Virus genome (UHGV): UHGV-0816550
Length of the DNA stretch: 18,217 bases
Origin: a virus
Strand: one strand, 5' to 3'
Part shown: piece after piece, positions 448 to 18,217 of the stretch
How positions within the stretch are numbered: the stretch's first letter is position 1
Layout: each line of letters opens with the position of its first letter
Translations under genes and position numbers: made by a program
The notes under the pieces: model-generated
What the model saw: only the letters and a program-made list of their open reading frames with translations
Told to the model about the DNA's origin: nothing
Database searches by the model: none

Positions 448-3400
448 ATGATCGTTTATAATAGCCAAGCACCTGATGCAGTGAATGATGTTGGGCAGTT
501 TGGTGCTAAGGAAGGCTCTATCGGAGCTTACAAGCAAGCAGCAGAATATGCAGCTGACTCCAAATATTGGGCACTGCTAGCGGAGTCTAAGTTTGGTACA
601 ATTGATGACTTGATCACTGAAGTAGAACGTCTGTATCAACAAGGTGTTTTAATGAAGCAAGATATCGAAGATCTTAAACAGGACTTTAAAGATCAAGATG
701 CTCGTTTGATGACACTTATTGCTCAGACTAACGCAGCAGTGTCGGATGCTAATAATGCCGTTGCTTTAATCAATCAGAAACTTATTGAGGTTCAGAAACA
801 GCTTGATGTTCTGTTGGGAATGTCTGTTGACGTAACTACACTTCCTCCGGGAACTCCGGCTACTGGCTCTTTTAATCCGAACACTGGTGTAATCTCTTTA
901 GGTATTCCAGAAGGTGATCCCGGAAAGGATGGTTCTGTTAAAGATTTGGATACAGCACCTACTGGTGTTCCAGAGCTAGGTGATTTAGGTTTCTATGTTG
1001 ACAAAGATGACAATACTGTCCACAAGACTACTCTAGAGAATATTGCTAACTTAATTCCATCTGTTCGTTCTGTGTCTGTTAACGGTGGAACACCTGCTGA
1101 TGGAGAAGTTAATCTGGTCCTAGACAAAACTACTGTAGGTCTTAATAACGTAGTTAACGTAGCCTCTTATAGTATCTCTCAAGTTGACGGTAAAGTGGAT
1201 GGGTATGTTAAAACCTACAGAACCAAAGCTGCTGCGGATGCTGATGTAGTTAACCGAAAGGTTGGCGAAAACATCCTAGTTTGGGAGGATTATAAATACG
1301 TCTTCTACACTGTAGCTGCCGATAAAACACTAACTCTTTCTAAAACAGAAAATAGGATTGTTACGGTAAACTCTCGAGTTCCGGATTCTACTGGTAATAT
1401 TGATATTACGATACCTACCGGTAACCCGTCTTTGTATTTGGGTGAGATGTTAATGTTCCCTTATGACCCAGCCAAACAGGTGTCATATCCGGGTGTTCTT
1501 CCAGCTGATGGTCGTCTGGTGTCTAAAGATAACGCTGCTGATTTAGGCCCATCTCTTGTCAGTGGTCAACTTCCTGTTGTTTCTGAAACTGCGTGGCAAG
1601 CTGGAGCTAAACAGTATTTCTCTTGGGGCAAGTTAGCTGATGGGGTTACTGATGCGGATTCAACAAACTTTATCAATATTCGACTTCCCGATTGGACAGG
1701 TGGTGAGGCAATTAGATCTCCAAGTAAAACAAGTGACACTCAGTATGATGGAAGACCTCTTTCTCAGGTTCCTTATGTTGTTGCTGTTAACGGTAAGATC
1801 CCTAATGAAGCAACAGGTAATGTTACAGTCACAGCATCAGATGTAGGTGCCCTTCCTACTACTGGTGGTAAGATGACAGGCCATCTAAATCTCAGCTCTG
1901 GGATTGTGTTAACAGGTACCGCGAGTTCTGGAACATCCATTAATATCGCAACTGTTGCAACTGATGGTTCCGTTCTTCTCGGTAGTGATACAGTTAAAGC
2001 TAAAGTCCTATCTTCTGATGTCCCTGTTTATGCAAGCGCTTCGGGAGAGAAGAAGTTTTACACTGAGGCTAACAAACCAACTCCTGCTGAAATAGGGGCT
2101 GCTGCTATCACCTCTGCTGGGGTTAACGGGGATATCACTAAGCTTGAAGGTTTGGTTGGCCCTACTCGACTGGGTGGAGATGCTGTAGGTGATCTAGATG
2201 CTGTTACCTTACGTCAGTTAAGAAACCAAGGGGGTGGCGGTGGTGGGGCTAGCTTGAACGGTGTCTCTAATTTCAATATTGGTGATTTCCGTTTAGTAGA
2301 CAGTCGTGCTCTTATTCACTCTAATGACGTAACTTCTGACGGTCAATTATTATCTCGTACGGCATACCCAGATCTGTGGGCTTATGCTCAAGCGTTGTCT
2401 CCTATCACAGATGCTGCTTGGCTGGCTGACCCCCAACAAAGAGGTAAATACTCTTTAGGTGATGGTTCTACTACATTCCGTGTCCCTGACCGAAATGGTG
2501 TCCAAAGCGGCTCTATCACAGGGTTGTTTGGTAGGGGTGACTCTGGTAATTCTTCTAACAGTGGTTCAGTTTCTGATGCTTCTCTGCCAAACATCACAGC
2601 TAGCTTCTCTTCAGACTTAAACGGAAAAGCTTGGTTTCCTTTCACTACAGCTGACGGGTCTATGCTTGTCTCAACATCCGGTAGTGGAACTTTTATGCCA
2701 ACTGCTGGATATGAAACTGGGACCCAAGGAAATATACTTAGGTTCGATGCATCTAGACAATCCTCAGTTTATGGTCGATATAGTAACACCCAGAACGTAA
2801 TACCTAAAAGTTTTACTGGCGTTTGGGTAATCAGGGCTACTGGTGGATTCACTGCTGCTAATACAGAGTGGTCTGTTATTAACTCCGATGCAACCAAACC
2901 TTCTACTGGGTTTACAGTGTCTGGTGGTTTAGTCCGCTCTGAGTATAAAATAGGGACCGACCTAACTTACTCAGCAACCTTGTCTGCTTATGGGCAAATT
3001 GATGGAGCCTCCGGAACATCTGGAGCTAAAATCTTAAACGGGTCTCAGGAGTGGAAATTCAACAATGCTGGAACATTAGTTCTTCCTAATGCGGTATCTC
3101 AGCTTGGTACAGAAAGACCTGATGGAGCTATCAATGTTGATGCATACCTAAGACCTAAAGATTTGGTAGCCAACTCACTGAACTCTGTCGGTGTTGCGGC
3201 TTACGAGCGAAACGGTATGAGGATGATTAACTTCAATCAAACCACTCCTGGATATGTTTCTTACTTCTCTGGGGATTGGTATGATGGCAGTTACACTCTT
3301 GGTGGCGTTCGTGGTACTGGTACAGACCTGATTCATGCTCAGATTGCGGTAAACAACGGTCAAGGTGTAGCAGCTGATTTTAAGTTCATGCCGGACGGAA

Positions 3401-3762
3401 CTGCTCAAGCAGGGAACTGGTCAAGCACTTCAGACGAAAGACTTAAAACTAACATCAAGCGTATTGAGAATCCTATTGAAAAACTTAAGGCTATCAAAGG
3501 TGTTACTTGGGAACGTCTTGATAAACTTCCTAAACCTAATGGTATTGGCTTCCTTGCGCAAGATGTGGAGAAGGTTTTCCCTGACGCTGTTAAGGCTCTC
3601 CAGTATTCAGACACTGAATTGAAAGATGGAACTATTGTGAAAGATGTTAAGTCTGTAGACACCTATGGGGTAGCTGCTGCACTGCATCACGAAGTCCTAT
3701 TAGTTTTGTTAGATAGAATAGAAGCTCTTGAGAAAGAAGTAAATGAATTAAGGGCACGGTAA
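448..3762 (+). CDS. Tail fibre / tailspike protein 1 (1104 aa) with tail-collar module and C-terminal intramolecular chaperone domain
   Basis: ATG 448 preceded by AAGGAG (437-442). Predicted coiled-coil N-terminus; poly-Gly hinge (QGGGGGGAS); collar-like motif AYPDLWAYAQAL...GDGSTTFRVPDRNG at about 2362-2500; C-terminal S-DERLKTNIKRIENPIEKLKAIKGVTWERLD...LHHEV typical of peptidase S74 self-cleaving chaperone domains. Confidence 0.9.
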   Translation: MIVYNSQAPDAVNDVGQFGAKEGSIGAYKQAAEYAADSKYWALLAESKFGTIDDLITEVERLYQQGVLMKQDIEDLKQDFKDQDARLMTLIAQTNAAVSDANNAVALINQKLIEVQKQLDVLLGMSVDVTTLPPGTPATGSFNPNTGVISLGIPEGDPGKDGSVKDLDTAPTGVPELGDLGFYVDKDDNTVHKTTLENIANLIPSVRSVSVNGGTPADGEVNLVLDKTTVGLNNVVNVASYSISQVDGKVDGYVKTYRTKAAADADVVNRKVGENILVWEDYKYVFYTVAADKTLTLSKTENRIVTVNSRVPDSTGNIDITIPTGNPSLYLGEMLMFPYDPAKQVSYPGVLPADGRLVSKDNAADLGPSLVSGQLPVVSETAWQAGAKQYFSWGKLADGVTDADSTNFINIRLPDWTGGEAIRSPSKTSDTQYDGRPLSQVPYVVAVNGKIPNEATGNVTVTASDVGALPTTGGKMTGHLNLSSGIVLTGTASSGTSINIATVATDGSVLLGSDTVKAKVLSSDVPVYASASGEKKFYTEANKPTPAEIGAAAITSAGVNGDITKLEGLVGPTRLGGDAVGDLDAVTLRQLRNQGGGGGGASLNGVSNFNIGDFRLVDSRALIHSNDVTSDGQLLSRTAYPDLWAYAQALSPITDAAWLADPQQRGKYSLGDGSTTFRVPDRNGVQSGSITGLFGRGDSGNSSNSGSVSDASLPNITASFSSDLNGKAWFPFTTADGSMLVSTSGSGTFMPTAGYETGTQGNILRFDASRQSSVYGRYSNTQNVIPKSFTGVWVIRATGGFTAANTEWSVINSDATKPSTGFTVSGGLVRSEYKIGTDLTYSATLSAYGQIDGASGTSGAKILNGSQEWKFNNAGTLVLPNAVSQLGTERPDGAINVDAYLRPKDLVANSLNSVGVAAYERNGMRMINFNQTTPGYVSYFSGDWYDGSYTLGGVRGTGTDLIHAQIAVNNGQGVAADFKFMPDGTAQAGNWSSTSDERLKTNIKRIENPIEKLKAIKGVTWERLDKLPKPNGIGFLAQDVEKVFPDAVKALQYSDTELKDGTIVKDVKSVDTYGVAAALHHEVLLVLLDRIEALEKEVNELRAR
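3430..3759 (+). other. Intramolecular chaperone (peptidase S74-like) domain of fibre 1, with predicted autocleavage near the Ser-Asp at 3430-3435
   Basis: Motif SDERLKTNI...GVTWERL...GIGFLAQDVEKVFPDAV...LHHEVLLVLLDRIEALEKEVNELR matches the conserved endosialidase/tailspike C-terminal chaperone signature ending in a coiled coil. Confidence 0.7.
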
Positions 3763-3772
3763 TATAAATAAT

Positions 3773-3791
3773 GCTCCCTTCGGGGAGCTTT
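3773..3791 (+). terminator. Stem-loop GCTCCC-TTCG-GGGAGC followed by TTT; candidate terminator or RNA processing/stability hairpin
   Basis: Perfect 6-bp GC-rich inverted repeat with a UUCG tetraloop 11 nt after the fibre 1 stop; only a short U-tract; the AAGGAG site of the next gene follows at 3792. Confidence 0.5.
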
Positions 3792-3803
3792 AAGGAGATT
3801 TAA

Positions 3804-5900
3804 ATGTCTAGAGATTTAATGCCCAAATCTGGCATACTTCAACCATATGTTGTTGTTTCCAGAGATGCAGCTGTTGTTGGCGTTTCCACTGTAGATGGTG
3901 TTGCTGGAGCTGTAAATTTAACTGATAAATACTTGCAGAAAACAGAAGCGGCTGATGTATATCAAACTAAAACAGAAGGTGCATCTAAAGATTATGTATT
4001 AGATTCAATTAAACCTATCATGGAAGGTGCTTTGTTCAAAGCAGACCCTTTTGTAGATAATAACATCCCTTTCCGTTCTGCTGGGGCTAATGGTGTAGAG
4101 TCTGTGGATATGATGAAAGTCACCACTGATAACTCAATTAAGATTGGTAGTTATGCTTCCTCAGTTCAAGGTGTAGAAATTCACTCTGCTGGTCGTCTTC
4201 AGGTTGTTGACCAGAATGACTCTGGGGTAGAAACTAAGTACCCTGTTTATTCTAAACGATACCGCCCTGAGATTGAAGATTTACCTTTCGCTGCAATCGG
4301 AACTTATGTTAAAGATTCAAAAGGTCGTACTGTTGGTGTTACCCGTACAGGTATTAACTCTGATATCAAACAGCTTACACAGAAGGTTACTTTCACTCAG
4401 CCAGTAACTGTTGCCGATGCAGTTGGTGACTATGATGCTGTCACACTAAGACAACTCCGTAATAGTAGTGGTGGTTCTGGTGGTCCTACAATGAGCGGTA
4501 TTTCTAACTTTGGTATTGGTGATTTCAGACTAGTAGACAGCCGTGCTTTTATCCAATCAAATGATGTTACCTCAGATGGTCAGCTGTTAAATCGTGCTGA
4601 TTACCCAGAGCTTTGGGCTTACGCACAACTATTGACCCCAATTAGTGATGCAGATTGGCTGGCTGACCCCCAACAAAGAGGTAAATACTCTTTAGGTGAT
4701 GGTTCTACTACTTTCCGCGTTCCTGATAGAAATGGCGTTCAAACCGGTTCTATCTCTGGTCTGTATGCTCGCGGTGACGGTGGTAACAGCTCCAACGACG
4801 GTACTGTTCAGCAGAACGCCGCGCCTGATATTACAGGCTCCGTTGGTGCGAACATATGGAGCGTATATGGAGATCCTACGGGGGCGATGTTTGCGGCTGA
4901 TCCAGCACTTAATATTCCGTTAGGCGCAGGAACCACACCAGCGCTTTCCGTCGGCTTTCGAGCGGGCCTATCAAACGCCGCTTATGGTCGCGACAACACG
5001 ACCGAAGTCCGCACCAACAGCTTCATAGGTGTCTGGGTTATTCGTGCTAATGGTGGCTTTACTGCTGCTAATACTTCTTGGTCTGTTATTAATGGCGACA
5101 GCGTTGCTCCGGGTACTGGAACAAAGATAGTAGGTGGTGAGATTCGTTCTGACTATAATATTGGAGACTCTATGCACATAAGATCCTCTATGCGTGCTGA
5201 TGGTAACTACGGTCAACGTGGAGGTGGTGTATGGAGAATTGAGGACTATCAAGGTAAAAGTGCAGAGATATCTTTCAACCTTGGTGGTGAGTTAGTGGTC
5301 CCAACATACACCAGAGGCGTGGGGTCGGGTTTCATTGCATCTTCTAAATTAGGGTCTGATGGTCAGTGGCCTACAACATCCCCGGCGTTTATTTGTGAGC
5401 TAACAGGCAGAGTGGGTAATCCCGGAACACCGGGTGCTGTTTTCTCCATGTCTATGGCGGAGAACGTGGGTGTTGATAGCTTTGGCATACTTAGATTCTC
5501 AGGAGCAGGGGTGAATGTGGACTGGCTGTTTAACCAGTTTGGTAGTGCCATAGCTCCTGCTAACTGGGTGAGTAATTCGGATATCCGAATTAAAAAGGAT
5601 ATTGCTAAGATAGAAGAACCTCTTGAGAAGATGAAGAAACTACATGGGTACACTTGGCGACGCTTAGACGGGGGCCAGTTTGGTATTGGGTTCATTGCTC
5701 AAGAAGTTCAGGATATCTATCCAGAGTTGGTCTATACAGGCCCAGACAGAACCCTCCCTGATGGAACAGTTGTCAAAGGTGTCCTATCTCCAGATTCTAC
5801 TGGTATTGCGATTGGTCTTCACCACGAAGCTATTCTGGCTTTGATGGAACAAATCGACACCCTTAAAGCAGAGATTGCTGAACTCAAATCTAACAAATGA
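3804..5900 (+). CDS. Tail fibre / tailspike protein 2 (698 aa), paralogue of fibre 1 with collar module and C-terminal intramolecular chaperone domain
   Basis: ATG 3804 with AAGGAG at 3792-3797. Collar-like motif ADYPELWAYAQLL...GDGSTTFRVPDRNG at about 4596-4737, roughly 80% aa-identical to fibre 1 over this module; C-terminal SDIRIKKDIAKIEEPLEKMKKLHGYTWRRLD...LHHEAILALMEQIDTLKAEIAELK. Confidence 0.9.
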   Translation: MSRDLMPKSGILQPYVVVSRDAAVVGVSTVDGVAGAVNLTDKYLQKTEAADVYQTKTEGASKDYVLDSIKPIMEGALFKADPFVDNNIPFRSAGANGVESVDMMKVTTDNSIKIGSYASSVQGVEIHSAGRLQVVDQNDSGVETKYPVYSKRYRPEIEDLPFAAIGTYVKDSKGRTVGVTRTGINSDIKQLTQKVTFTQPVTVADAVGDYDAVTLRQLRNSSGGSGGPTMSGISNFGIGDFRLVDSRAFIQSNDVTSDGQLLNRADYPELWAYAQLLTPISDADWLADPQQRGKYSLGDGSTTFRVPDRNGVQTGSISGLYARGDGGNSSNDGTVQQNAAPDITGSVGANIWSVYGDPTGAMFAADPALNIPLGAGTTPALSVGFRAGLSNAAYGRDNTTEVRTNSFIGVWVIRANGGFTAANTSWSVINGDSVAPGTGTKIVGGEIRSDYNIGDSMHIRSSMRADGNYGQRGGGVWRIEDYQGKSAEISFNLGGELVVPTYTRGVGSGFIASSKLGSDGQWPTTSPAFICELTGRVGNPGTPGAVFSMSMAENVGVDSFGILRFSGAGVNVDWLFNQFGSAIAPANWVSNSDIRIKKDIAKIEEPLEKMKKLHGYTWRRLDGGQFGIGFIAQEVQDIYPELVYTGPDRTLPDGTVVKGVLSPDSTGIAIGLHHEAILALMEQIDTLKAEIAELKSNK
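5577..5897 (+). other. Intramolecular chaperone (peptidase S74-like) domain of fibre 2
   Basis: NSDIRIKKDI...HGYTWRRL...GIGFIAQEVQDIYPELV...GLHHEAIL plus terminal coiled coil; homologous to the fibre 1 C-terminus but divergent (I estimate about 40% identity by eye). Confidence 0.7.
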
Positions 5901-5903
5901 GAT

Positions 5904-5922
5904 AAGCCCCTTCGGGGGCTTT
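5904..5922 (+). terminator. Stem-loop AAGCCCC-TTCG-GGGGCTT; candidate terminator or processing hairpin after fibre 2
   Basis: Perfect 7-bp stem with UUCG tetraloop 4 nt after the TGA stop; same architecture as the hairpin at 3773-3791; weak U-tract. Confidence 0.45.
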
Positions 5923-5992
5923 AGTAGTAAGTACCCTTAGTAAGTAATGAAACTAATATATCCCAAGAGGTTAATATATAGGAGACACTCAA

Positions 5993-6211
5993 ATGAAAAT
6001 GATGAAACAGGCTGCATATGGTTTAATCTGTTTAGTTGCAGGCGTTGTGGTATCAACCGCAGTTCCTGTAAGCGCAGTTCATCCATTAGTAACTGTCCCT
6101 GCTCCAGTAGAGAAGCTTAGCTCTCAATGCAAGCAGAGAACAATTCAAAATAACTTAGTTGTTATTTGCCCCGATGCTGAATCTAACGCTCTGAGAAAGA
6201 TACTACCTTAA
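5993..6211 (+). CDS. Small membrane protein (72 aa), putative holin or lysis accessory protein
   Basis: ATG 5993 with AGGAG at 5980-5984. One N-terminal hydrophobic segment (AAYGLICLVAGVVVSTAV), a proline-rich stretch and a charged C-terminal tail; sits immediately upstream of a lysozyme that has no signal or anchor sequence. Confidence 0.5.
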   Translation: MKMMKQAAYGLICLVAGVVVSTAVPVSAVHPLVTVPAPVEKLSSQCKQRTIQNNLVVICPDAESNALRKILP

Positions 6212-6240
6212 TTTAAAGGGACTACAAAAGGAGGTTAGGA

Positions 6241-6732
6241 ATGGATAACGCCGCATTGCCACCTGTACAACTAAACTTAAGCCCAGCTGGAATGGAATTC
6301 ATCATGAAGCATGAGGGTATGAGAACCAAGGCTTATAAAGATTCCGCAGGTATATGGACTATATGTGTAGGGGCTACGCGCGATATGAATGGTTATCCGG
6401 TTAGACAAGGATTAACGTATTCTATAGAGGATTGTCTAGCTCTGCTAGATAGAGACACACAAGACTCTGTTCGTGCTACTCAAAAGAACATAAAGGTTCC
6501 TTTACTAGTTCATGAGTTTGATGCACTCACTTCTTTCAACTTCAATGTTGGCAGTGGTGCTTTGAGCACATCTAAGTTAAGGAAGGTTATCAATGGAGAA
6601 GTTAAAGGGGATGTATATTCCGAATTTCTTCGTTGGGATAAAATAACGGTCAAGGGAGAGAAGCAGAGAAGTCAGGGTCTTCATAATAGAAGGGTTGCAG
6701 AAGCTGATCTTTACACCGAAGGTAAATATTAA
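6241..6732 (+). CDS. Endolysin, T4-type lysozyme (glycoside hydrolase family 24)
   Basis: ATG 6241 with AAAGGAGG at 6226-6233. HEG-MRTKAYKD-SAGIWTICVG reproduces the T4 lysozyme catalytic spacing Glu-(9)-Asp-(6)-Thr (T4 E11/D20/T26; here E25/D34/T40). No N-terminal hydrophobic segment, so it would be holin-dependent. Confidence 0.9.
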   Translation: MDNAALPPVQLNLSPAGMEFIMKHEGMRTKAYKDSAGIWTICVGATRDMNGYPVRQGLTYSIEDCLALLDRDTQDSVRATQKNIKVPLLVHEFDALTSFNFNVGSGALSTSKLRKVINGEVKGDVYSEFLRWDKITVKGEKQRSQGLHNRRVAEADLYTEGKY

Positions 6733-6744
6733 TGGAGGTGCCTT

Positions 6745-7548
6745 TTGGCTATCGAAACTAATGCGGTAGTTATTACCGACTTAAACCCGCTCTATCCTAG
6801 AGACAGGGATTACATCTACGAAGGGGCGGCTCAAATCCGCCTCATTAAACAAACGTTACAGAACACATTCCCCAATGTTACAGAACCGGTTGATATAGAT
6901 TCTGATACCTTTAAGATTATGTCAGAGAAGCTTAAGTTTACTGGTGATGCAATGGATGTTGGTGGTCTTATGATCAAGAATGTTACTCCGGGAACTGGTG
7001 ACAAGGATGTTGTTACTAAAGGCCAGATGGAAGCGTTCATGAAGAACTGGATGGAGAATAAGCTCTATCGAATTGGTTCTTACTATATCACTGAAGAAGA
7101 CATTAACCCAGGTGATTCAATCTCCTTAGGGTTTGGTTCTTGGGCTAAAGTGACTGGTGTCATTATGGGTACTGGTGTAGTAAACCCTGATGGAACTGTT
7201 CCTAATGCTCAGAGAGTTGAGTTCCAAGCAGGTGGTACTGGTGGTCGTGTCTTCAATACTATTCGAACTGAGAACGTACCTTTGATGACAGTTAATGGCT
7301 CCAGCTTCTCTCTATCCAGTAATACTCACAGTCACAATATGGTGTTTGGTCGTGGGGATGCTAGTGGTCATAACAGCTCACCAAACTGGTATAGTCCGGG
7401 TGGTGGTTATAGTCAGAGAACTGATAATGACACACATACTCATACAATCTCTGGTAGTGTAAGTCTTGGTCGTGATGATATCTCTCGTCAACCTATTAAC
7501 ACTTTGCCACCATTCAGAGCAGCTCACATTTGGAGACGTATTAGCTAA
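6745..7548 (+). CDS. Short tail fibre-like / receptor-binding tail protein (267 aa) with two HxH motifs
   Basis: TTG start at 6745 with GGAGG at 6734-6738; no in-frame ATG nearby. C-terminal region NTHSHNMVFGRGDASGHNSS...DTHTHTISG has HxH motifs and an FGRGD-x-G-x-NSS motif also present in both fibres, recalling the T4 gp12 type collar and metal-binding tip region. Confidence 0.7.
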   Translation: MAIETNAVVITDLNPLYPRDRDYIYEGAAQIRLIKQTLQNTFPNVTEPVDIDSDTFKIMSEKLKFTGDAMDVGGLMIKNVTPGTGDKDVVTKGQMEAFMKNWMENKLYRIGSYYITEEDINPGDSISLGFGSWAKVTGVIMGTGVVNPDGTVPNAQRVEFQAGGTGGRVFNTIRTENVPLMTVNGSSFSLSSNTHSHNMVFGRGDASGHNSSPNWYSPGGGYSQRTDNDTHTHTISGSVSLGRDDISRQPINTLPPFRAAHIWRRIS

Positions 7549-7557
7549 GGAGGAATT

Positions 7558-10500
7558 ATGGCGCTGTATCCAATAAAGTCACTAGGTGCTGTAGGCGTTA
7601 TCGCTGATCAGGCTCCGACAGACTTAGCTCCTAATGCTTTCACTAATGCTATAAATGCTCGATTTGTTGAGCAGAGAGTATTTAAGACGGGGGGCAATGC
7701 CCCTCTTTCTTATGTAGATGAAGATAAGGATTTAACCCCTCTGTCTTTCGTTTCTATGCCTTTCGATTATTATAGCGCAGGTAATAGCTTTCTTGTTGTA
7801 GGTACTAATAAGAAGTTATATAAACTGACAGATGAAAGCTTGACTGATATTAGCCGTAAGGTTGCTACAGTCACTAAGAAGGCTTCTGCCTCAATTAAGA
7901 TTTATCCAGTTGTTTCTCAGATCGTTCCTAAAGAATCAACTATCTCAATGAACTTCAATCAGACCAAGAATCTAGAGGTTTCTCTTCTCCCTGCTGATGC
8001 TAACAATACCGATCTTATTTGGGAGGTTAGTAACTCATCCTATGGAAGTATTACGGTAGACCCTAGTGACTCTAAACTTGCTACTCTAACATCTTTTGAG
8101 AAAGAGGGTAATCTTGTAGTAACTATCTCTACTGCCAATGAATCCGTAGTGGCTCAGATTGCTGTTAATATTATCGATGGCGATTCAGGCATCTTCTTGA
8201 GTCAAGACACTGTTACAATTCGTAAAGGAGGGACTACTACTCTCACGGCTGTTACTGGCAAGACTCCTGTAACTTGGTCCAGCAATAACGCTTCTATTGT
8301 ATCTGTAACCCCTAATGCCAACTCTTTAACTGCTGTCATTACAGCGAATGGAGAAGGTAATGTAACAATCACTGCTGATAACGGGACTAAGACTGCTTCT
8401 TGTGAGATTGTTTCTATCCCTCAGATTGATAGTATCTCTTTAAGCCAGTCAGATGTTACTGTGAGTAGAGGTTCTCAGTATATTTTAACTGCCACCCTTT
8501 CTCCTGCTAACGCCCCTAATCAAAACATTACTTGGACCTCTTCTAACCCAAATATTGCAACAGTATCAGGGACTAGCACACAAGGGACGATCAACGCTCT
8601 GCTTGCTGGTTTTACTGAGATTACAGCTACCACTGAAGAAGGTAACAGAGTTGCTGTCTGTACTGTACGTGTGGATTTAGCTGGAAGGACAATGAGAACA
8701 AGTGCTATGGCATTTGCCGCTCCTGTGTCAGAGTCAGTAGAAACTCAAGAGGAAGAAGTAGTAACTCCTCCTGAAAGTGAAGAGACGGTTTATTTTGCTG
8801 AGCCTACATCCGGTATTGATACGTCAGGGATGTATGAAGGTAACAACTTCTACGACTACTCTAACGTGAATGACATTGAAGGTTTTGCAAGAGCTTCTTT
8901 ACTGGCAACCCCTTTGTCGTCTGTAACCTTAGATATTGTCAGCGCCTCCCTTGATGTTGGTGAAGAGATTGTCATTACAGCCACAGCTTCTCCAGAAGGT
9001 GAGTACTCTTATCAGTGGTCTGTTGATAAAACTGGTTATGTTTCTACAACTTCAGTTACTGGTAAATCTATCAAACTGGTTGCTCTTCGTAAAGGAGAGA
9101 TTAACGTAACATGTACTGTCAGCCAGATGACTCAGAAAGATTATGATGCTTTTGATGACTACCCTTGGTATCACGCTGTTATCTCTAACTGTGCAGTTGC
9201 TACAACTCACTATGAAACTCCTCAGGTAAAAGAATTCGAATCAGAATACTTTGTAGACCTCCCGGGGTGGGGTGAGCAAACAGTTGTTGATAATGATGGA
9301 AACCCTTCAGTCAAGAAGTTTAACTGGAAATGTGAGAGAGTGAGATCTTTTAACAACCGTCTTTTTGCTCTGAATATGAGAGAGGCTAATGCTTCTGGTG
9401 TTACCACTAACTATCCGCTTCGTCTTCGTTGGTCTAACTTTGCCAATGAGAACAAGGCTCCTACACTGTGGGATGACTTTGCCTATGATCGAGTTGTGTC
9501 TTCGGACTTAGCTTCTAACATCGTAGGGCAGACTCAGGCTCTAGAGAATGGGTATGCTGGTTACATCGACTTAGCAGATTCTAATGGTAGCTTGATTGAT
9601 ATCCTACCTCTTAAAGACTACTTGTTTGTTTATACAGAGTTTGAAACGTATATTGGTTCTCCGACTAATAACACATACCAACCTCTGATGTTCAAGAAGC
9701 TCTTTAACGACTCTGGTATCCTTGCTCCCGAGTGTGTGGTTGAAGTAGAAGGCAGTCACTTCGTAGTTACTCAGAACGATGTAATCTTACACAATGGCGC
9801 AACCAAGAAGTCAATTGCATCTAACCGTGTCAAGAACATGCTGATTAACGAGGTGTGTCTGGTTAATCCTCTAGCAACTCGAGTACACTTGCATCAGGAT
9901 AAGAAAGAAGTTTGGGTTCTGTATGTAGGTCCGGGAGAACCAAAAGAAAGCTTCGCTTGCACCAAAGCTGCTGTATGGAATTATGAGTTTGATACCTGGT
10001 CTTTCCGTACTATCCCATATGCTCAGTGTATTGGTCTGGTTGATCCTCCTGTTTTAGAAAGAGGTCCAATCTGGTCTGACTTCCAAGAAATCACTTGGGA
10101 TGATCCGTCTATTAAAGAACTCGTTTGGAGAAAGGATGCAACAAACTTTAGACAGAGGGTTACGATAGTAGGTTCGTTCTTGAGGGGATTCTATCAGGTG
10201 GATGTAGGTGCTCTTGATTATTTCTATGACAGGCTAAACGATGTTGTTATAGAGAAGCCTCTGGAAATGAGGTTGGAGAGGACTGGTATAGATTTTGATA
10301 ATGTGACGAATGAGTGGAATCAGAAGCATATTAATAGATTCCGACCTCAGACAACTGGCTCAGGTACTTACATATTTGAAGCTGGTGGCAGTCAATTCTC
10401 AAATGAATATGGACACCCACATACATCTAAGACTTATACAATCGGTGTTGACAGGCATGTCTCGGTGAGACTGAACCATCCATACCTTTTCTATAATGTT

Positions 10501-10575
10501 ATAGATAATGATGTTAACAGTAATGCTGCTATCAATGGTTTGACGATAGAGTTTGCTGTTGGCGGGCGGAGATAA
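7558..10575 (+). CDS. Large virion structural protein (1005 aa) with four internal Ig-like (Big_2-type) domains
   Basis: ATG 7558 with AAGGAGG at 7547-7553. Four roughly 80-aa repeats between about 7903 and 9120 with the Big_2 pattern (for example TISMNFNQTKNLEVSLLPADANNTDLIWEVSNSSYGSITVD; VTIRKGGTTTLTAVTGKTPVTWSSNNASIVSV; VTVSRGSQYILTATLSPANAPNQNITWTSSNPNIATV). Flanking N- and C-terminal regions not recognised. Confidence 0.8.
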   Translation: MALYPIKSLGAVGVIADQAPTDLAPNAFTNAINARFVEQRVFKTGGNAPLSYVDEDKDLTPLSFVSMPFDYYSAGNSFLVVGTNKKLYKLTDESLTDISRKVATVTKKASASIKIYPVVSQIVPKESTISMNFNQTKNLEVSLLPADANNTDLIWEVSNSSYGSITVDPSDSKLATLTSFEKEGNLVVTISTANESVVAQIAVNIIDGDSGIFLSQDTVTIRKGGTTTLTAVTGKTPVTWSSNNASIVSVTPNANSLTAVITANGEGNVTITADNGTKTASCEIVSIPQIDSISLSQSDVTVSRGSQYILTATLSPANAPNQNITWTSSNPNIATVSGTSTQGTINALLAGFTEITATTEEGNRVAVCTVRVDLAGRTMRTSAMAFAAPVSESVETQEEEVVTPPESEETVYFAEPTSGIDTSGMYEGNNFYDYSNVNDIEGFARASLLATPLSSVTLDIVSASLDVGEEIVITATASPEGEYSYQWSVDKTGYVSTTSVTGKSIKLVALRKGEINVTCTVSQMTQKDYDAFDDYPWYHAVISNCAVATTHYETPQVKEFESEYFVDLPGWGEQTVVDNDGNPSVKKFNWKCERVRSFNNRLFALNMREANASGVTTNYPLRLRWSNFANENKAPTLWDDFAYDRVVSSDLASNIVGQTQALENGYAGYIDLADSNGSLIDILPLKDYLFVYTEFETYIGSPTNNTYQPLMFKKLFNDSGILAPECVVEVEGSHFVVTQNDVILHNGATKKSIASNRVKNMLINEVCLVNPLATRVHLHQDKKEVWVLYVGPGEPKESFACTKAAVWNYEFDTWSFRTIPYAQCIGLVDPPVLERGPIWSDFQEITWDDPSIKELVWRKDATNFRQRVTIVGSFLRGFYQVDVGALDYFYDRLNDVVIEKPLEMRLERTGIDFDNVTNEWNQKHINRFRPQTTGSGTYIFEAGGSQFSNEYGHPHTSKTYTIGVDRHVSVRLNHPYLFYNVIDNDVNSNAAINGLTIEFAVGGRR

Positions 10576-10579
10576 CAAC

Positions 10580-10608
10580 AAGGGGCTTCGTGCCCCTTTT
10601 ATTGTTTT
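10580..10608 (+). terminator. Rho-independent terminator-like hairpin AAGGGGC-TTCGT-GCCCCTT followed by a U-rich tract
   Basis: 7-bp GC-rich stem at 10580-10586 / 10592-10598, then TTATTGTTTT; lies 5 nt after the TAA stop at 10573-10575 and before the next gene's GGAGGA site. Confidence 0.6.
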
Positions 10609-10618
10609 GGAGGAACTT

Positions 10619-11587
10619 ATGGGTGCAGGTGGTTTTCGTAAGAATACTGGTCGCAACAATACCACACTCCCGTACAACGTTGGGTTTCTCAATAATGTAC
10701 AGGACACAGAAACATATAACGTAGCCGTATATGATGAGCTACAAAAAGTCAGTACAGCTACTAACCAAATGTTCCAAGCTATAGATGAAATTCACGAAGA
10801 GATTGATGTTCGTATTAAAGCTCTTAATGCAATGAATCTACAATTTGATGAGCTTGAGAATAGAATTACTACAGAGATAGAAACAGCTATTGCAGATATC
10901 CAAACCCAGATGGGGAACCTGTCCACTGAGGATATTTGGGATAATTCTGTTCAACCTCCTGTGAAGCTGGAAAGCACTGTATCTGGTTTTAAGACTAGCA
11001 TCGAAGGTAACACAACTAAGATTCAGACAGTAGAAGGTATTGTTAACGATCAAGGTCAAGAGATTGCTCTTGTTCAGACAGAACTGCAAAATATCAACGG
11101 AAGCCTTTCTCAGTATATGAAACTCTCTGAGTATGAAGCTACGTGGGGTGTTAACTCTACAGTCAACGGAAGATATGCTGGGGTCAAGTTAACTAACAAC
11201 GGAACAAACAGTCAATTCCAAGTAACAGCTAACAAATTTATTGTTGGTGATGGCAGCTCTGGGAATACTCCCTTCGTATTTGAGGGTGGGCGAGCTAGGA
11301 TGGAATTCGCTGATATAAAGAATGTCAATATCACAACAGCTCAGATTGCTAACGCTAGAATCCAATGGGCACAGATTGATAACGTATCCATCTCCAACGC
11401 CCAGATTCAGAACTTGTCAGCGGATAAGATTACTGCTGGTTCTATGTGGGGTTCTAACTGGAGACTTACTGTTGGTGGTGACTTTGTTATGGGTGGTACA
11501 GGTGGAGCGCAGTTGTGGATGAATGGTAACAGAATAGACTTCTATGATGGAAGTGGTGCTCTTAGAATCAGGATAGGGAGTTGGTAA
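10619..11587 (+). CDS. Tail protein (322 aa) with coiled-coil region and J-like beta-repeat C-terminal domain
   Basis: ATG 10619 with GGAGGA at 10609-10614; the ORF-track start at 10553 is a TTG inside the previous gene and terminator. Heptad-like central region; C-terminal repeats NITTAQIANARIQWAQIDNVSISNAQIQNLSADKITAGS resemble tail tip / host-specificity protein repeats. Confidence 0.75.
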   Translation: MGAGGFRKNTGRNNTTLPYNVGFLNNVQDTETYNVAVYDELQKVSTATNQMFQAIDEIHEEIDVRIKALNAMNLQFDELENRITTEIETAIADIQTQMGNLSTEDIWDNSVQPPVKLESTVSGFKTSIEGNTTKIQTVEGIVNDQGQEIALVQTELQNINGSLSQYMKLSEYEATWGVNSTVNGRYAGVKLTNNGTNSQFQVTANKFIVGDGSSGNTPFVFEGGRARMEFADIKNVNITTAQIANARIQWAQIDNVSISNAQIQNLSADKITAGSMWGSNWRLTVGGDFVMGGTGGAQLWMNGNRIDFYDGSGALRIRIGSW

Positions 11588-15482: not shown

Positions 15483-16274
15483 ATGCAACAGACAACTTAC
15501 GCTCAGGTCAGAAGTCGTGACCCGAGAAATACTTTCTATGGTGTTAATCCGGGAGCGGCTTCGGCCTCTCCTTATATGGCTAGACCAACTCAGACAGCAG
15601 ATATTTCTATGTATCAACGTCCTGCTATACCTGCTGGGCTTTCCTCTCTTGTAGGTCAAACTTCAGTAGATTATCAGAATATGTTGAATCCTGTTCAGAG
15701 TAATGGTCTTCCTTCTGATATCCCAAATGATGTACAACCTCAAGCACAACAGGCTGTAACTCTTCCTGAGTTTGAGAATCAAGAAACCATGCAAGCTGCT
15801 GGACTTTCTCCTTCTTCTATTCCTCCAGAATCAGAACCTCTTCCGGTAACACCTCCTACTAAACCGTTAGAAGCTGGTCCTATGGAGTTTACTCCTTCTC
15901 AGGTGGAACAGGCACAAGGTGTGATTAATACTCTTGCTCAAGGACAAGACGCTGGTGATGGAATGACTGCTGCTACTCGTGCTAAAGATCAGGAACGTGT
16001 TAACAACGATATCTTGCAAGTTGCTAAAGCTAAAAATCCTTCAGAAGCTTGGAATAAACTACAGAAAGAACCTTTCTATCAGAACTCCAGTTTCTATACA
16101 GGTTTAATGGGTGTAGGTCTTTCTATCATGTCAGGTAAGTCTCCTATTGAAGCTTTCCAGATTGGTCAGGGAATGGCTAATCAAGATGAGACTAAGAAGC
16201 AACTGGAAGCTAACCGTGATGCTCTGATTGAACAAGGCTTCTCCCAAGACTCGATCGCAGCTGCTATTGCTTAA
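15483..16274 (+). CDS. Hypothetical virion/ejection-associated protein (263 aa) with Pro-rich linker and C-terminal hydrophobic segment
   Basis: ATG 15483 with AGGAG at 15473-15477. Pro/Ser-rich linker (SPSSIPPESEPLPVTPPTKPLEAGP) and hydrophobic FYTGLMGVGLSIMSG near the C-terminus; no family motif recognised. Confidence 0.65.
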   Translation: MQQTTYAQVRSRDPRNTFYGVNPGAASASPYMARPTQTADISMYQRPAIPAGLSSLVGQTSVDYQNMLNPVQSNGLPSDIPNDVQPQAQQAVTLPEFENQETMQAAGLSPSSIPPESEPLPVTPPTKPLEAGPMEFTPSQVEQAQGVINTLAQGQDAGDGMTAATRAKDQERVNNDILQVAKAKNPSEAWNKLQKEPFYQNSSFYTGLMGVGLSIMSGKSPIEAFQIGQGMANQDETKKQLEANRDALIEQGFSQDSIAAAIA

Positions 16275-17967
16275 CACGTTGAGAGCGAGCACGCTGAGAA
16301 GAGAAGCGATTCAGAGCATACTTAGCAGCACCGAGAGTGTTCATTACCAGACTAGGTGAAGAAGCCTCACGGAATCCATCATCAGTCAGGGAAGTCCAAC
16401 CACGATCTTGGTTACTCATAAACTTAGCCGTATTGTTCAGAGTGTAAGCATCTTGGATAGGATTAAAACCTTCAGGCATGCCTTTCAGTTTCTTCAACCC
16501 ACCGATAGCTTTCTTCATCTCTGGAGAAACGTTATCAGCCATCTTCTGTAGTTCAGCAGCTTTCTCTACGAAGTTGTTAAAGTCTTCACCATCACGAGCT
16601 TTGAATCGATTTGCTTCGTTATAGAAAGTCTTGTACGCATCAATGAAATCACGGTCAGCTTGTGTGCGATTCTTAATATCAATCGGACTGCCAGTAAAGT
16701 CACCAGAAGCTCGGAGAGAAACTAACTCACGATCAAGATTATCCAGAACATCTGTAAGAGCTTTAGTGTTATCCTTGGTGTAGTCAGCCATTGCATCTTT
16801 CATAGCGACAGCTTGCTTCTGGTTGTGCTCATTATCAGCGAAGGCTTTACCACGAGTCTTAGCCGGAGAAGCTAAAGGGTTAAGGCCCGGAATGTTGGAA
16901 TGTTCTTTCTGAACAGAAGCAGCTTTCTCAGCACGAGCTTGGTCAGTATTAAGAATACGCTGAGCAGCAGGAGAATCTACAGCAACAGCATCTGTGATAC
17001 GGAATCCGTTCTCGTCGAGAAGGTTCAGAGCAGAAGCAGCGTTAGCAGTTTCAGCTTTAGAGTAAGCCTCTTTCAGCTCATCAATATTCTTAGCACCACG
17101 AATCAGTTCATCATCAGCAGCAATATCAGTCTTCGCATATTCTGGAGTGTTCTTGAAGACAGCAGAATCCGGACGGCTAATCAAACCATGAACTCCACCA
17201 ACTGCACCACCAAATGCAGCACCCATAGCCCCTTCTTCAATAACCCCTTCCAATGTCTTAGCTAAATCATTGTCATCACCATACTTGTTCTGAACTTCAG
17301 CAGCACCAACAAGAGCACCACCTTTAGCACCAGCCACTGCGTTACTAGCAACGTTCTGACCAATACGACCAAGTGTGGACTCAGCTGTACCAACAGCACC
17401 CGGAAGGATTCTCTGAGCTGCATAGTTAGCACCACCAACTAAGGCTGCATCTAGAACAGACTTATCTTCTCCCTCTTCAGGGGTTTGGTCTGCATACGCA
17501 CGACCGGTCTCACGACCTGCGATGATAGCAGCGGCAGCTAATGGGTTAGCAACTGTCAGACCAATGTCGGCAACCACCCCAGCATACTGACCAGCAGACT
17601 TACCAATCCCATCCTCAATCTTATCCATACGTTCTTTCAAGAGGTTTTGAGCGTTCTCTTGCATACGCTTCCCGTAACCAGTTTGTGCTCCAGTTAGATC
17701 TTCACCAATCTCAACTAAGCCCCCAATACCTCTAGCAAGATTAGCAGAGATGTTAGCACTGCCGGACTGAAGAGCATTTGACACACCTTGAGCAAACTCA
17801 CCTATAGCACCACGTTCTTCTTGTTGTGGTTGTGCTACTGGCTGTTCCTCAGGAATAGAGCCACCTGCTGCCTTATATTGTTCTCTCATTCGAGCTTGTT
17901 GCTCCGGAGAGGCATTCAGATACGCAGGAGCTTTGGAAGCTTCTTCCCACGGTTTAATGTTAGCCAT
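16264..17967 (-). CDS. Hypothetical Gly/Ala-rich protein (567 aa), function unknown
   Basis: Minus-strand ATG at 17965-17967 preceded by AAGGAG; product begins MANIKPWEEAS. The ORF-track start at 18012 has no ribosome-binding site. Stop TAG at 16264-16266 overlaps the 3' end of the + strand gene ending at 16274. Confidence 0.75.
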   Translation of the reverse strand: MANIKPWEEASKAPAYLNASPEQQARMREQYKAAGGSIPEEQPVAQPQQEERGAIGEFAQGVSNALQSGSANISANLARGIGGLVEIGEDLTGAQTGYGKRMQENAQNLLKERMDKIEDGIGKSAGQYAGVVADIGLTVANPLAAAAIIAGRETGRAYADQTPEEGEDKSVLDAALVGGANYAAQRILPGAVGTAESTLGRIGQNVASNAVAGAKGGALVGAAEVQNKYGDDNDLAKTLEGVIEEGAMGAAFGGAVGGVHGLISRPDSAVFKNTPEYAKTDIAADDELIRGAKNIDELKEAYSKAETANAASALNLLDENGFRITDAVAVDSPAAQRILNTDQARAEKAASVQKEHSNIPGLNPLASPAKTRGKAFADNEHNQKQAVAMKDAMADYTKDNTKALTDVLDNLDRELVSLRASGDFTGSPIDIKNRTQADRDFIDAYKTFYNEANRFKARDGEDFNNFVEKAAELQKMADNVSPEMKKAIGGLKKLKGMPEGFNPIQDAYTLNNTAKFMSNQDRGWTSLTDDGFREASSPSLVMNTLGAAKYALNRFSSQRARSQRVKQ

Positions 17968-18035
17968 AACGTCTCCTTTTATAAATAAAAATGTCCTACC
18001 CCCTATATACATTATAGAAGGCAGGACTTAGGTCT

Positions 18036-18217
18036 TATTGAGTGAACCAGCTCGTATCTTCAACAGCTGATAGAGCACCATTAAGCTTAGGATTGGTTGC
18101 TGCACCACCAACCGCTTCTTCTGCTTGTTCAGAGAAAACACCTAGAGGGTCATAGAAACCACCAGAAGGGATTGCACGGTTAACCAATGCAGTAGCCCTC
18201 TTCTTGTCCATACCAGA
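18036..18217 (-). CDS. Small minus-strand ORF, possibly the C-terminus of a gene that starts beyond the window end
   Basis: Frame open from the window edge to TAA (complement of 18036-18038); internal ATG at 18209-18211 would give a 57-aa product MDKKRATALVNRAIPSGGFYDPLGVF...; codon usage like neighbours. Start not determinable. Confidence 0.35.

What the first reader, a model, noticed from the sequence alone, without database searches (positions are those of the whole stretch)
3773..10608. Three GC-stem/UUCG-loop hairpins bracket the fibre cassettes and the Big_2 gene
Hairpins at 3773-3791 (GCTCCC-TTCG-GGGAGC), 5904-5922 (AAGCCCC-TTCG-GGGGCTT) and 10580-10598 (AAGGGGC-TTCGT-GCCCCTT) share a CCC-TTCG-GGG type core and each lies within 11 nt of a stop codon. 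No comparable hairpin was seen at the other tight gene junctions. They may be terminators, attenuators or RNA-processing/stability elements that set fibre expression level and define exchangeable cassettes.
Basis: seen in the sequence. Interest (0 to 1): 0.45.

Follow-up and report, generated by a model that had tools for sequence, protein, structure and literature searches.

The report
Terminator-type hairpins in phage late operon
The three hairpins are real, conserved RNA stem-loops of the ordinary intrinsic-terminator kind, sitting after two tail-fibre genes and one Ig-like gene of a phiEco32-like coliphage; two of them are already annotated as terminators in related phage genomes, so the finding is sound but ordinary.

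Summary
The window is the late structural region of a Kuravirus, a phiEco32-like E. coli podophage. All three hairpins exist at the stated coordinates, 3-10 nt after the stop codons of gp14, gp15 and gp19. They are far beyond chance: 3 TTCG-type loops against 0 in 300 shuffles. All other gene junctions in the window are unstructured.

Across 19 relatives from three genera the hairpins keep their positions while the stems change by compensatory substitutions, or by insertion of a whole base pair. The TTCG loop and sense-strand polarity are kept, so selection acts on an RNA structure.

HP3 has a canonical U-tract and is annotated as a terminator in phages Paul and WFI101126. HP1 and HP2 have only UUU and score as marginal terminators; HP2 is also annotated as a terminator in WFI101126. 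All three lie inside the single late unit P13 to gene 25, so they must be leaky attenuators or 3'-end stabilisers.

The same design occurs genome-wide in phiEco32 and after fibre genes of unrelated phages, so it is not fibre-specific. HP1 and HP2 coincide with the 3' edge of the variable fibre modules, but left edges lie inside the genes and remnant 3' coding ends show crossovers upstream of the hairpins.

Verdict: known kind, low interest.

The parts
448..3762 (+). gp14 tail fibre gene (1104 aa). The N-terminal part is conserved. The C-terminal part, from about 1800-2550 to 3758, is variable and ends in a Peptidase_S74 chaperone domain.
   Evidence: ORF list; phiEco32 synteny; Pfam; homology breakpoints
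3773..3791 (+). HP1: GCTCCC-UUCG-GGGAGC, a C(UUCG)G tetraloop with a 6-bp stem, plus UUU. The Shine-Dalgarno AAGGAG of gp15 follows at 3792-3797. It is a marginal intrinsic terminator or a 3'-stabilising hairpin.
   Evidence: 4 of 7 pairs with compensatory change; variants GCCCTC/GAGGGC, AACCCC/GGGGTT and an 8-bp stem with GAAA loop in Paul; only 3 U in the tail
3804..5900 (+). gp15 tail fibre gene (698 aa). The N-terminal ~320 aa are conserved. The C-terminal module (~4790-5900) is variable and ends in Peptidase_S74.
2179..2549 (+). Segment of gp14 that is 75.5% identical to gp15 4416-4786. It lies just upstream of the variable module and is the candidate left-hand homology for module exchange.
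   Evidence: also matched across relatives
4416..4786 (+). gp15 copy of the segment shared with gp14. Similarity to relatives ends at about 4750-4790.
5904..5922 (+). HP2: AAGCCCC-UUCG-GGGGCUU, a C(UUCG)G tetraloop, followed by UAGUAGUAAG. It is a marginal intrinsic terminator or 3'-stabilising hairpin. Its homologue is annotated as 'terminator' in phage WFI101126.
   Evidence: variants CCCCGC/GCGGGG (L007), AACCCTC/GAGGGTT (WFI101126) and an unrelated 11-bp stem in XT18
5923..5992 (+). Conserved 70-nt spacer between HP2 and the holin start. It contains AAGTAATGAAACTAATATATC and two 8/9 matches to the gp36 promoter consensus. Its function is unknown and it is context only.
7558..10575 (+). gp19 Ig-like (Big_2) virion protein gene, the last gene before HP3
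10580..10608 (+). HP3: AAGGGGC-UUCGU-GCCCCUU plus the U-tract UUUUAUUGUUUU (10 of 12 U after the GC core). It is a canonical intrinsic terminator, with an A-rich 5' flank able to extend the stem. The SD GGAGG of gp20 is at 10609-10613.
   Evidence: annotated terminator in Paul and WFI101126; UUCG tetraloop form and compensatory A-U pair insertion in relatives
10619..11587 (+). gp20 tail-tip fibre gene, the first gene that depends on read-through of HP3
   Evidence: no TAATGTATA promoter between P13 and P26 in phiEco32

Best explanation
HP1, HP2 and HP3 are sense-strand RNA hairpins of the rho-independent (intrinsic) terminator type. They lie inside the single late transcription unit of a phiEco32-like phage. 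That unit runs from promoter P13 to gene 25 and is transcribed by host RNA polymerase carrying the phage sigma factor gp36.

HP3 is a canonical but necessarily leaky terminator (an attenuator). It has a GC stem followed by UUUUAUUGUUUU.

HP1 and HP2 have the same fast-folding, very stable C(UUCG)G hairpin but only a UUU tract. They are therefore weak terminators at best. Their main effect is probably to form a stable 3' hairpin on terminated or 3'-trimmed transcripts, which protects the upstream fibre cistron from 3'-to-5' exonucleases.

Together the three would give a stepwise 5'-to-3' decrease in mRNA dose: gp13-14 > gp15 > lysis genes/gp18-19 > gp20-25.

HP2 and HP3 start only 3-4 nt after a stop codon. 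A ribosome terminating there should partly melt the 5' arm, which makes read-through depend on translation.

Shown here: the structures, their excess over chance, positional conservation with compensatory changes, sense-strand polarity, and their position inside one promoter-to-promoter unit. Inferred: termination or attenuation, mRNA stabilisation, and dosage setting.
For: Sequence and fold:
- The hairpins are present and stable and in excess over shuffles.
- The only structured junctions in the window are these three.

Conservation across Kuravirus, Nieuwekanaalvirus and Suseptimavirus, with compensatory changes:
- HP1: 4 of 7 pairs show compensatory change. Orthologous Suseptimavirus copies carry two double substitutions, GCTCCC/GGGAGC to GCCCTC/GAGGGC.
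- HP2: variant stems CCCCGC/GCGGGG and AACCCTC/GAGGGTT.
- HP3: a whole A-U pair is inserted, GGGGC/GCCCC to GGGAGC/GCTCCC.
- The TTCG loop is nearly invariant.
- G-U wobbles and the U-tract make sense only on the + strand RNA.

Terminator criteria:
- HP3 passes the terminator scan and has a tail score like the trp attenuator.
- Curated GenBank records annotate the homologues as terminators: HP3 in Paul; HP2 and HP3 in WFI101126.

Transcription context:
- phiEco32-like phages have no RNA polymerase of their own (PMC4281155). RNAP-gp36 holoenzyme assembled from E. coli core enzyme transcribes phiEco32 late and middle promoters in vitro (PMC12276001).
- gp36 promoters (TAATGTATA) lie upstream of genes 6, 13 and 26 only in the late region (PMC4331800). 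A pattern search finds no copy between genes 13 and 25 of phiEco32. Genes 20-25 therefore need read-through.

Generality:
- The same design is used genome-wide in phiEco32, after genes 5, 7, 12, 48, 91 and 111.
- It also follows fibre genes of a T5-like phage and a Wifcevirus.

Translation effect: terminators a few bp after a stop codon are repressed by the ribosome (PMC4824070).
Against: HP1 and HP2 fail the U-tract criterion on the + strand: 3 U, then AAGGAG or AGUAGUAAG. My rough d-scores are about 0 or negative. The SU10 paper's FindTerm list did not include any of the three. No 3'-end mapping, Northern or in vitro termination data for these sites was found; the two key phiEco32 papers (Savalia 2008, Pavlova 2012) were not available. 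The dosage gradient is inferred, not measured.
Confidence: 0.7

Rival explanations
1. HP1 and HP2 (and perhaps HP3) are purely mRNA-stability or processing elements. RNA polymerase reads through them completely. After endonucleolytic cleavage downstream, 3' exonucleases stall at the UUCG hairpin, giving segmental differences in half-life within the polycistronic late mRNA, as with REP or the puf-operon hairpins.
For: HP1 and HP2 lack a U-tract, yet their structure is under selection. The UUCG tetraloop maximises thermodynamic stability. In Paul a GAAA-loop hairpin with an 8-bp stem replaces HP1, which suggests any very stable hairpin will do.
Against: HP3 and the sister hairpin after gene 12 have textbook U-tracts. 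All HP1 and HP2 variants keep at least UUU directly after the stem, which a pure exonuclease block would not need. The two roles are not exclusive.
Confidence: 0.2
2. The hairpins act at the DNA level as module-boundary or recombination linkers. The near-identical HP1 and HP2 cores (CCCTTCGGGG..CTTTA) provide conserved right-hand microhomology. Together with the 372-nt segment shared by gp14 and gp15 on the left, this would let receptor-binding modules be exchanged between phages or between the two fibre slots, analogous to the PeSL cassettes of T4-type phages.
For: Similarity to most relatives resumes within -14 to +2 nt of HP1 (window 3759-3790) and at HP2 (5900-5907). At least 3 different gp14 C-termini are joined to the identical HP1. 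Phages with a single fibre gene in place of gp14 and gp15 rejoin the backbone at HP2 and carry their own hairpin variants. gp14 and gp15 share a 372-nt repeat just left of the variable modules.
Against: A divergence boundary at the end of a variable domain is expected whatever the crossover site, because crossovers inside the conserved flank leave no trace. O18-011 and pEC-N1203-2Af.1 retain remnants of the ancestral fibre 3' coding end between the new module and the hairpin, so the joints there were upstream of the hairpin. HP3 is at no mosaic boundary. Compensatory stem changes, the strand-specific UUCG loop and G-U pairs point to RNA-level selection. Sixteen to eighteen bp is short for homologous recombination.
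Confidence: 0.07
3. The hairpins serve as translational insulators or enhancers. They uncouple translation of the downstream gene from the upstream one and present the Shine-Dalgarno in an unstructured stretch just 3' of a rigid hairpin.
For: HP1 ends 3 nt before AAGGAG and HP3 ends about 10 nt before GGAGG. The same hairpin-UUU-AAGGAGG arrangement recurs in phages 7-11 and GAP52 at another junction.
Against: HP2 lies 70 nt upstream of the holin SD. Nine other junctions in the window work without any hairpin.
Confidence: 0.03

Closest known systems
Rho-independent terminators annotated in related Kuravirus genomes: vB_EcoP_WFI101126 (NC_070991) and Paul (NC_070992)
   Same: These are orthologous positions and near-identical sequences. 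The WFI101126 record marks 'terminator' at the HP2 and HP3 homologues and after the Ig gene. The Paul record marks the HP3 homologue and the one after the head gene.
   Different: No record I inspected annotates HP1. The annotations are predictions, not mapped 3' ends. SU10's published terminator list omits all three.
C(UUCG)G hairpins of phage T4 intercistronic regions and of bacterial terminators (Tuerk et al. 1988 PNAS; d'Aubenton Carafa et al. 1990; cited from my own knowledge)
   Same: An exceptionally stable UUCG tetraloop is closed by C-G on a short GC stem. It is placed between cistrons or at terminators. HP1 and HP2 fit exactly, and HP3 fits in several relatives.
   Different: In this window HP3 has a UUCGU pentaloop. 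This is a structural motif class, not a homologous family.
Internal leaky terminators of phage late operons, for example T7 T-phi after gene 10 and the phiEco32/SU10 terminator after the head/Ig genes
   Same: A terminator sits inside a long late operon after an abundant structural gene, and essential genes downstream need read-through. The sister hairpin after gene 12 has a TTCG loop and a strong T-tract.
   Different: T7 T-phi acts on a single-subunit phage RNAP, whereas here the enzyme is host RNAP. HP1 and HP2 have much weaker U-tracts.
PeSL (promoter-early stem-loop) cassettes of T4-type phages (Arbiol et al. 2010; cited from my own knowledge)
   Same: Conserved intergenic stem-loops lie at the edges of variable gene modules.
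   Different: PeSLs pair a promoter with the stem-loop and flank modules on both sides. Here no promoter motif adjoins HP1-3, and the left module edges are inside coding sequence.

Membership tests
Rho-independent (intrinsic) terminator of bacterial RNA polymerase | Stable GC-rich stem-loop on the transcribed (sense) RNA | tested here: met
   Stems of 6-7 bp with 5 GC pairs; -12.5, -12.6 and -15.1 kcal/mol for the 38-nt contexts
Rho-independent (intrinsic) terminator of bacterial RNA polymerase | U-rich tract (about 7-9 nt, mostly U) immediately 3' of the stem: HP3 | tested here: met
   UUUUAUUGUUUU after the GC core. It passes the + strand scan and has a tail score comparable to the trp attenuator. 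The tract is conserved in all 19 relatives.
Rho-independent (intrinsic) terminator of bacterial RNA polymerase | U-rich tract immediately 3' of the stem: HP1 and HP2 | tested here: not met
   Only UUU, then AAGGAG (HP1) or AGUAGUAAG (HP2). Neither is reported on the + strand by the scan, and the rough d-scores are -6.5 and -0.4. They work like, at most, weak terminators.
Rho-independent (intrinsic) terminator of bacterial RNA polymerase | Located just downstream of a stop codon, co-oriented with the gene | tested here: met
   10, 3 and 4 nt after the gp14, gp15 and gp19 stops
Rho-independent (intrinsic) terminator of bacterial RNA polymerase | Transcribed by a multisubunit bacterial RNAP | not testable with these tools
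   From the literature: phiEco32-like phages lack their own RNAP (PMC4281155). E. coli core enzyme with gp36 transcribes phiEco32 late and middle promoters in vitro (PMC12276001).
Rho-independent (intrinsic) terminator of bacterial RNA polymerase | RNA 3' ends generated at the site in vivo or in vitro | not testable with these tools
   No Term-seq or 3'-mapping data for any Kuravirus in the held library
Conserved structured RNA element (any) | Base pairs maintained by compensatory change in homologues | tested here: met
   HP1: 4 of 7 pairs. HP2: 2 of 5 pairs, plus a re-registered CCCCGC/GCGGGG stem. HP3: a compensatory A-U pair insertion.
C(UUCG)G tetraloop hairpin | Four-nucleotide UUCG loop closed by a C-G pair | tested here: met
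   HP1 CCC-UUCG-GGG and HP2 CCCC-UUCG-GGGG. The loop is invariant in 14 of 15 and 17 of 18 homologues.
C(UUCG)G tetraloop hairpin | Same feature, for HP3 in this window | tested here: not met
   The loop is UUCGU, 5 nt. Seven of the 19 aligned sequences (L005, L006, EP335, MLP3, SU7, EK010 etc.) have GC-UUCG-GC.
PeSL-type mobile regulatory cassette | Promoter adjoining the stem-loop, and elements flanking the variable module on both sides | tested here: not met
   There is no TAATGTATA or sigma-70 match at HP1-3. The left edges of the variable modules are inside gp14 and gp15.
Rfam-curated RNA family | Match to any covariance model | tested here: not met
   No hit at gathering threshold over the whole window. 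Nothing at the hairpins at E<=5 over 3700-10700.

The most novel reading that the evidence does not exclude
HP1 and HP2 are not terminators. They are dual-purpose module-end markers: a near-identical CCC-UUCG-GGG hairpin closes each receptor-binding module, stabilises its mRNA 3' end and, at the DNA level, supplies the right-hand microhomology. Together with the 372-nt repeat shared by gp14 and gp15, this would let fibre tips be swapped between the two fibre slots and between phages. That would make them a podophage counterpart of T4-type PeSL cassettes.
Probability: 0.08. Interest if true: 0.45.

Novelty: already known. Interest (0 to 1): 0.18.

Why it matters
The practical value is modest. 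For anyone engineering host range in phiEco32-like therapeutic phages, the data show where natural fibre modules begin and end. The left edge is after the shared ~370-nt segment. The right edge is the stop codon, with the hairpin belonging to the backbone in most cases. An inserted module should therefore keep a stable hairpin before the next Shine-Dalgarno. The data also predict that genes 20-25 depend on read-through of a canonical terminator placed 4 nt after a stop codon, which is a simple natural test case for ribosome-modulated termination. Conceptually nothing new is added: stable-tetraloop terminators inside phage late operons are textbook.

Tried and rejected
- **Chance.** Rejected by shuffles and by the contrast with the other junctions.
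- **Minus-strand terminators.** The scan flags all three on the - strand because the upstream flank is A-rich. There are no - strand genes or promoters here, and the loop would be the unremarkable CGAA. G-U pairs in homologues would become A-C mismatches.
- **Known RNA family.** Rfam finds none.
- **Fibre-specific device.** Rejected by the genome-wide scan of phiEco32.
- **Hairpin travels with the fibre module across phage families.** The T5-like and Wifcevirus homologues of the modules end their similarity 20-70 nt before the stop codon. They carry their own unrelated terminator hairpins.
- **Deep conservation.** Grimontviridae (7-11, GAP52, Privateer) lack hairpins at the equivalent junctions. 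7-11 and GAP52 have AAGGGGC-TTCG-GCCCCTT after the ejection-protein gene instead.
- **Promoter next to the hairpins.** None is convincing. Two 8/9 matches to TAATGTATA lie in the HP2-holin spacer, but one-mismatch 8-mer matches occur at the chance rate: 19 observed against 18.8 expected.
- **Papers not obtained.** Savalia 2008 and Pavlova 2012 are not held.
- **Alignment limits.** MAFFT mis-registers the stems that differ by an inserted pair (L007 in HP2; four sequences in HP3). The RNAalifold counts for HP2 and HP3 therefore understate the covariation.
- **d-score.** The formula was recalled from memory and used with modern energy parameters, so it serves for ranking only. It mis-scores rrnB T1 and lambda tR2 as I partitioned them.


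Full report
**What the window is**

Megablast and blastn against GenBank phages give 90-95% identity to about 50 Kuravirus genomes, including phiEco32, SU10, MN03 and pEC-N1203-2Af.1. Synteny with annotated phiEco32 and Pfam give the following + strand map:

| Coordinates | Feature |
|---|---|
| to 438 | gp13, 3' end |
| 448-3762 | gp14 fibre (Peptidase_S74 end) |
| 3773-3788 | HP1 |
| 3804-5900 | gp15 fibre (Peptidase_S74 end) |
| 5904-5921 | HP2 |
| 5993-6211 | holin |
| 6241-6732 | endolysin |
| 6745-7548 | gp18 (Gp10_C) |
| 7558-10575 | gp19 (Big_2) |
| 10580-10598 | HP3 |
| 10619-11587 | gp20 (Phage_Tail_Tip) |
| from 11589 | gp21-gp25 |

Yes.
- The three sequences are exactly where stated.
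- They fold as single hairpins of -12.5, -12.6 and -15.1 kcal/mol.
- Dinucleotide shuffles of the window give 1.03 +/- 1.01 hairpins of this quality against 4 observed. They give none with a TTCG(N) loop in 300 shuffles against 3 observed.
- The three junctions that carry them fold at -16 to -20 kcal/mol. The other nine junctions fold at 0 to -7.6.

Two corrections apply. HP3 has the reverse arm polarity (GGGGC...GCCCC) and a UUCGU pentaloop in this window, so only HP1 and HP2 share the CCC-UUCG-GGG core. And HP2 and HP3 bracket four genes, not just the Big_2 gene.

**Conservation**

I fetched the region from 19 relatives spanning Kuravirus, Nieuwekanaalvirus and Suseptimavirus. All that have the same gene junction carry a hairpin there.

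- **HP1.** The common form is GCTCCC/GGGAGC. It becomes GCCCTC/GAGGGC in SU7 and L006, which is two double substitutions behind an otherwise orthologous gp14 end. It becomes AACCCC/GGGGTT in IMEP8. In Paul an 8-bp stem with a GAAA loop replaces it. RNAalifold finds compensatory change at 4 of 7 pairs.
- **HP2.** The common form is AAGCCCC/GGGGCTT. It becomes CCCCGC/GCGGGG in L007 and AACCCTC/GAGGGTT in WFI101126. In XT18 an unrelated 11-bp stem replaces it.
- **HP3.** GGGGC-TTCGT-GCCCC becomes the true tetraloop GGGGC-TTCG-GCCCC in five relatives. In four others a whole A-U pair is inserted, giving GGGAGC/GCTCCC.

The TTCG loop is almost invariant, G-U wobbles occur, and the T-tract lies 3' on the + strand only. 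Selection is therefore on a sense-strand RNA structure.

**Transcriptional context**

- phiEco32-like phages have no RNA polymerase of their own (PMC4281155). RNAP-gp36 holoenzyme assembled from E. coli core enzyme transcribes phiEco32 late and middle promoters in vitro (PMC12276001).
- The gp36 promoter element TAATGTATA lies upstream of genes 6, 13, 26, 40, 58 and 68 (PMC4331800).
- In the fetched loci it recurs before gene 13 in every relative where that stretch was fetched, and before gene 26 wherever the locus reaches it. It is absent between genes 13 and 25 of phiEco32.
- HP1-3 are thus internal to one late unit, and genes 20-25 (tail tip and ejection proteins) can only be expressed by read-through of HP3.

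**Terminator quality**

HP3 has UUUUAUUGUUUU after the GC core and passes the + strand scan. It scores like the trp attenuator in a rough d'Aubenton-Carafa-type score; the formula was recalled from memory and is for ranking only. HP1 (UUUAAGGAG) and HP2 (UUUAGUAGUAAG) fail the U-tract criterion and score about 0 or below.

Curated GenBank records already call the homologues terminators: HP3 in Paul, and HP2 and HP3 in WFI101126. The SU10 paper's list of four predicted terminators contains none of them. It does contain the sister element after the head/Ig genes, ccctgcc-ttcg-ggcgggg-tttttt.

**Is it fibre-specific?**

No. A scan of the whole phiEco32 genome finds the same post-stop GC hairpins at many other sites:
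- After genes 5, 6, 7, 12, 14, 15, 19, 25 and 26 on the late strand.
- After genes 111, 91 and 48 on the other strand, all with TTCG loops.
- After further genes with GAAA or UACG loops.

TTCG is the commonest tetraloop among GC-rich hairpins in the genome.

Fibre genes in unrelated phages that share module similarity with this window also end with their own stable-tetraloop terminators:
- T5-like Kenya-K36: AGCGCGTC-TTCG-GGCGCGCT-TTTTT.
- Wifcevirus EC150: AGGCGCT-GAAA-AGCGCCT-TTACTTT.

In Grimontviridae (7-11, GAP52) AAGGGGC-TTCG-GCCCCTT-TTTAAGGAGG sits after the ejection-protein gene. The 7-11 record annotates it as a terminator.

**Cassette idea**

Similarity of relatives to the window drops inside gp14 (about 1720-2550) and inside gp15 (about 4750-4790). 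It resumes at 3759-3790 and at 5900-5907, which are HP1 and HP2.
- Three or more different gp14 C-termini are joined to an identical HP1.
- Phages with one large fibre gene in place of gp14 and gp15 (WFI101126, XT18, L007, myPSH1131) rejoin the backbone at HP2.
- gp14 and gp15 share a 372-nt segment (75.5% identity) immediately left of their variable parts.

So the hairpins mark the 3' edge of the modules. A divergence edge at the end of a variable domain is expected wherever the crossover was, however. In O18-011 and pEC-N1203-2Af.1 the ancestral fibre 3' coding end survives as a remnant between the new module and the hairpin, so those joints lie upstream of the hairpin. HP3 is at no mosaic edge. 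The linker reading is therefore weak.

**Mechanism I commit to (confidence about 0.7)**

These are intrinsic-terminator-type hairpins.
- HP3 is a canonical, leaky attenuator.
- HP1 and HP2 are weak terminators whose main role is probably to stabilise the 3' end of the upstream fibre message.
- Because HP2 and HP3 begin 3-4 nt after a stop codon, a terminating ribosome should partly occlude the 5' arm and favour read-through. This was shown for tR2 placed a few bp after a gene (PMC4824070).
- The outcome would be a stepwise decline of late mRNA dose along the operon.

Everything after 'hairpin under selection, sense strand, inside one transcription unit' is inference.

**Verdict**

This is a known kind of element with annotated orthologues, so interest is low.

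Noticed in passing
window 16267-18217: This stretch is the reverse complement of phiEco32 27761-25811 (93% identity). Window 15834-16271 matches phiEco32 24695-25132 in forward orientation. Relative to every fetched relative there is thus an inversion with a 5-nt overlap at the joint, which breaks gp25 and gp26. The other breakpoint lies beyond the window. It could be a real rearrangement or an assembly error.
   Followed up: partly
window 17993-18027, minus strand: The top 'terminator-like' hit of the scan is a 15-bp inverted repeat, GTCCTGCCTTCTATA-ATGTA-TATAGGGGGTAGGAC, plus ATTTTTATTT. It contains the gp36 late-promoter element TAATGTATA (SU10 late promoter 25622; phiEco32 P26). A promoter embedded in a terminator-shaped hairpin directly after gene 25 is curious.
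   Followed up: partly
window 5923-5992: The 70-nt spacer between HP2 and the holin start is highly conserved across three genera, with AAGTAATGAAACTA.TATATC near-invariant. It holds two 8/9 matches to TAATGTATA, at 5954 and 5972. It may be a lysis-gene regulatory element or a weak promoter, and it is not explained.
   Followed up: partly
window 2179-2549 and 4416-4786: gp14 and gp15 share a 372-nt segment at 75.5% identity just upstream of their variable C-terminal modules. A second 65-nt match links 2818-2882 and 5028-5092. This is potential homology for exchange between the two fibre genes.
   Followed up: partly
window 2818-3692 and 4998-5880: The gp14 C-terminal module is 67-72% identical at DNA level to fibre genes of Wifcevirus and related myophages (EC150, FEC19, Ro157lw). 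The gp15 C-terminal module is 67% identical to a T5-like Salmonella phage fibre (Kenya-K36). Both window fibres end in Peptidase_S74 chaperone domains. This indicates cross-family module sharing.
   Followed up: partly
window 7689-7705: A GC-rich hairpin, GGGGGG-CAATG-CCCCTC, followed by TTTCTTATG lies inside the gp19 coding sequence. It is identical in phiEco32, N1203, L005, Paul and SU7 but absent in L006, L007, WFI101126 and XT18. It may be chance or an in-gene pause or terminator.
   Followed up: partly
L018 (WFI101126), L020 (XT18), L007, L019 (myPSH1131): These relatives have a single large fibre gene (or a split one) where this window has gp14 and gp15. O18-011 and pEC-N1203-2Af.1 carry extra small ORFs between a fibre gene and the following hairpin.
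   Followed up: no
L002 14725, L004 15180, L005 15191, L011 12798: Some relatives have an exact TAATGTATA inside gene 21. The window has CAATGTAT at 12027. This could be an extra internal late promoter downstream of HP3 in those phages, or it could be chance.
   Followed up: no
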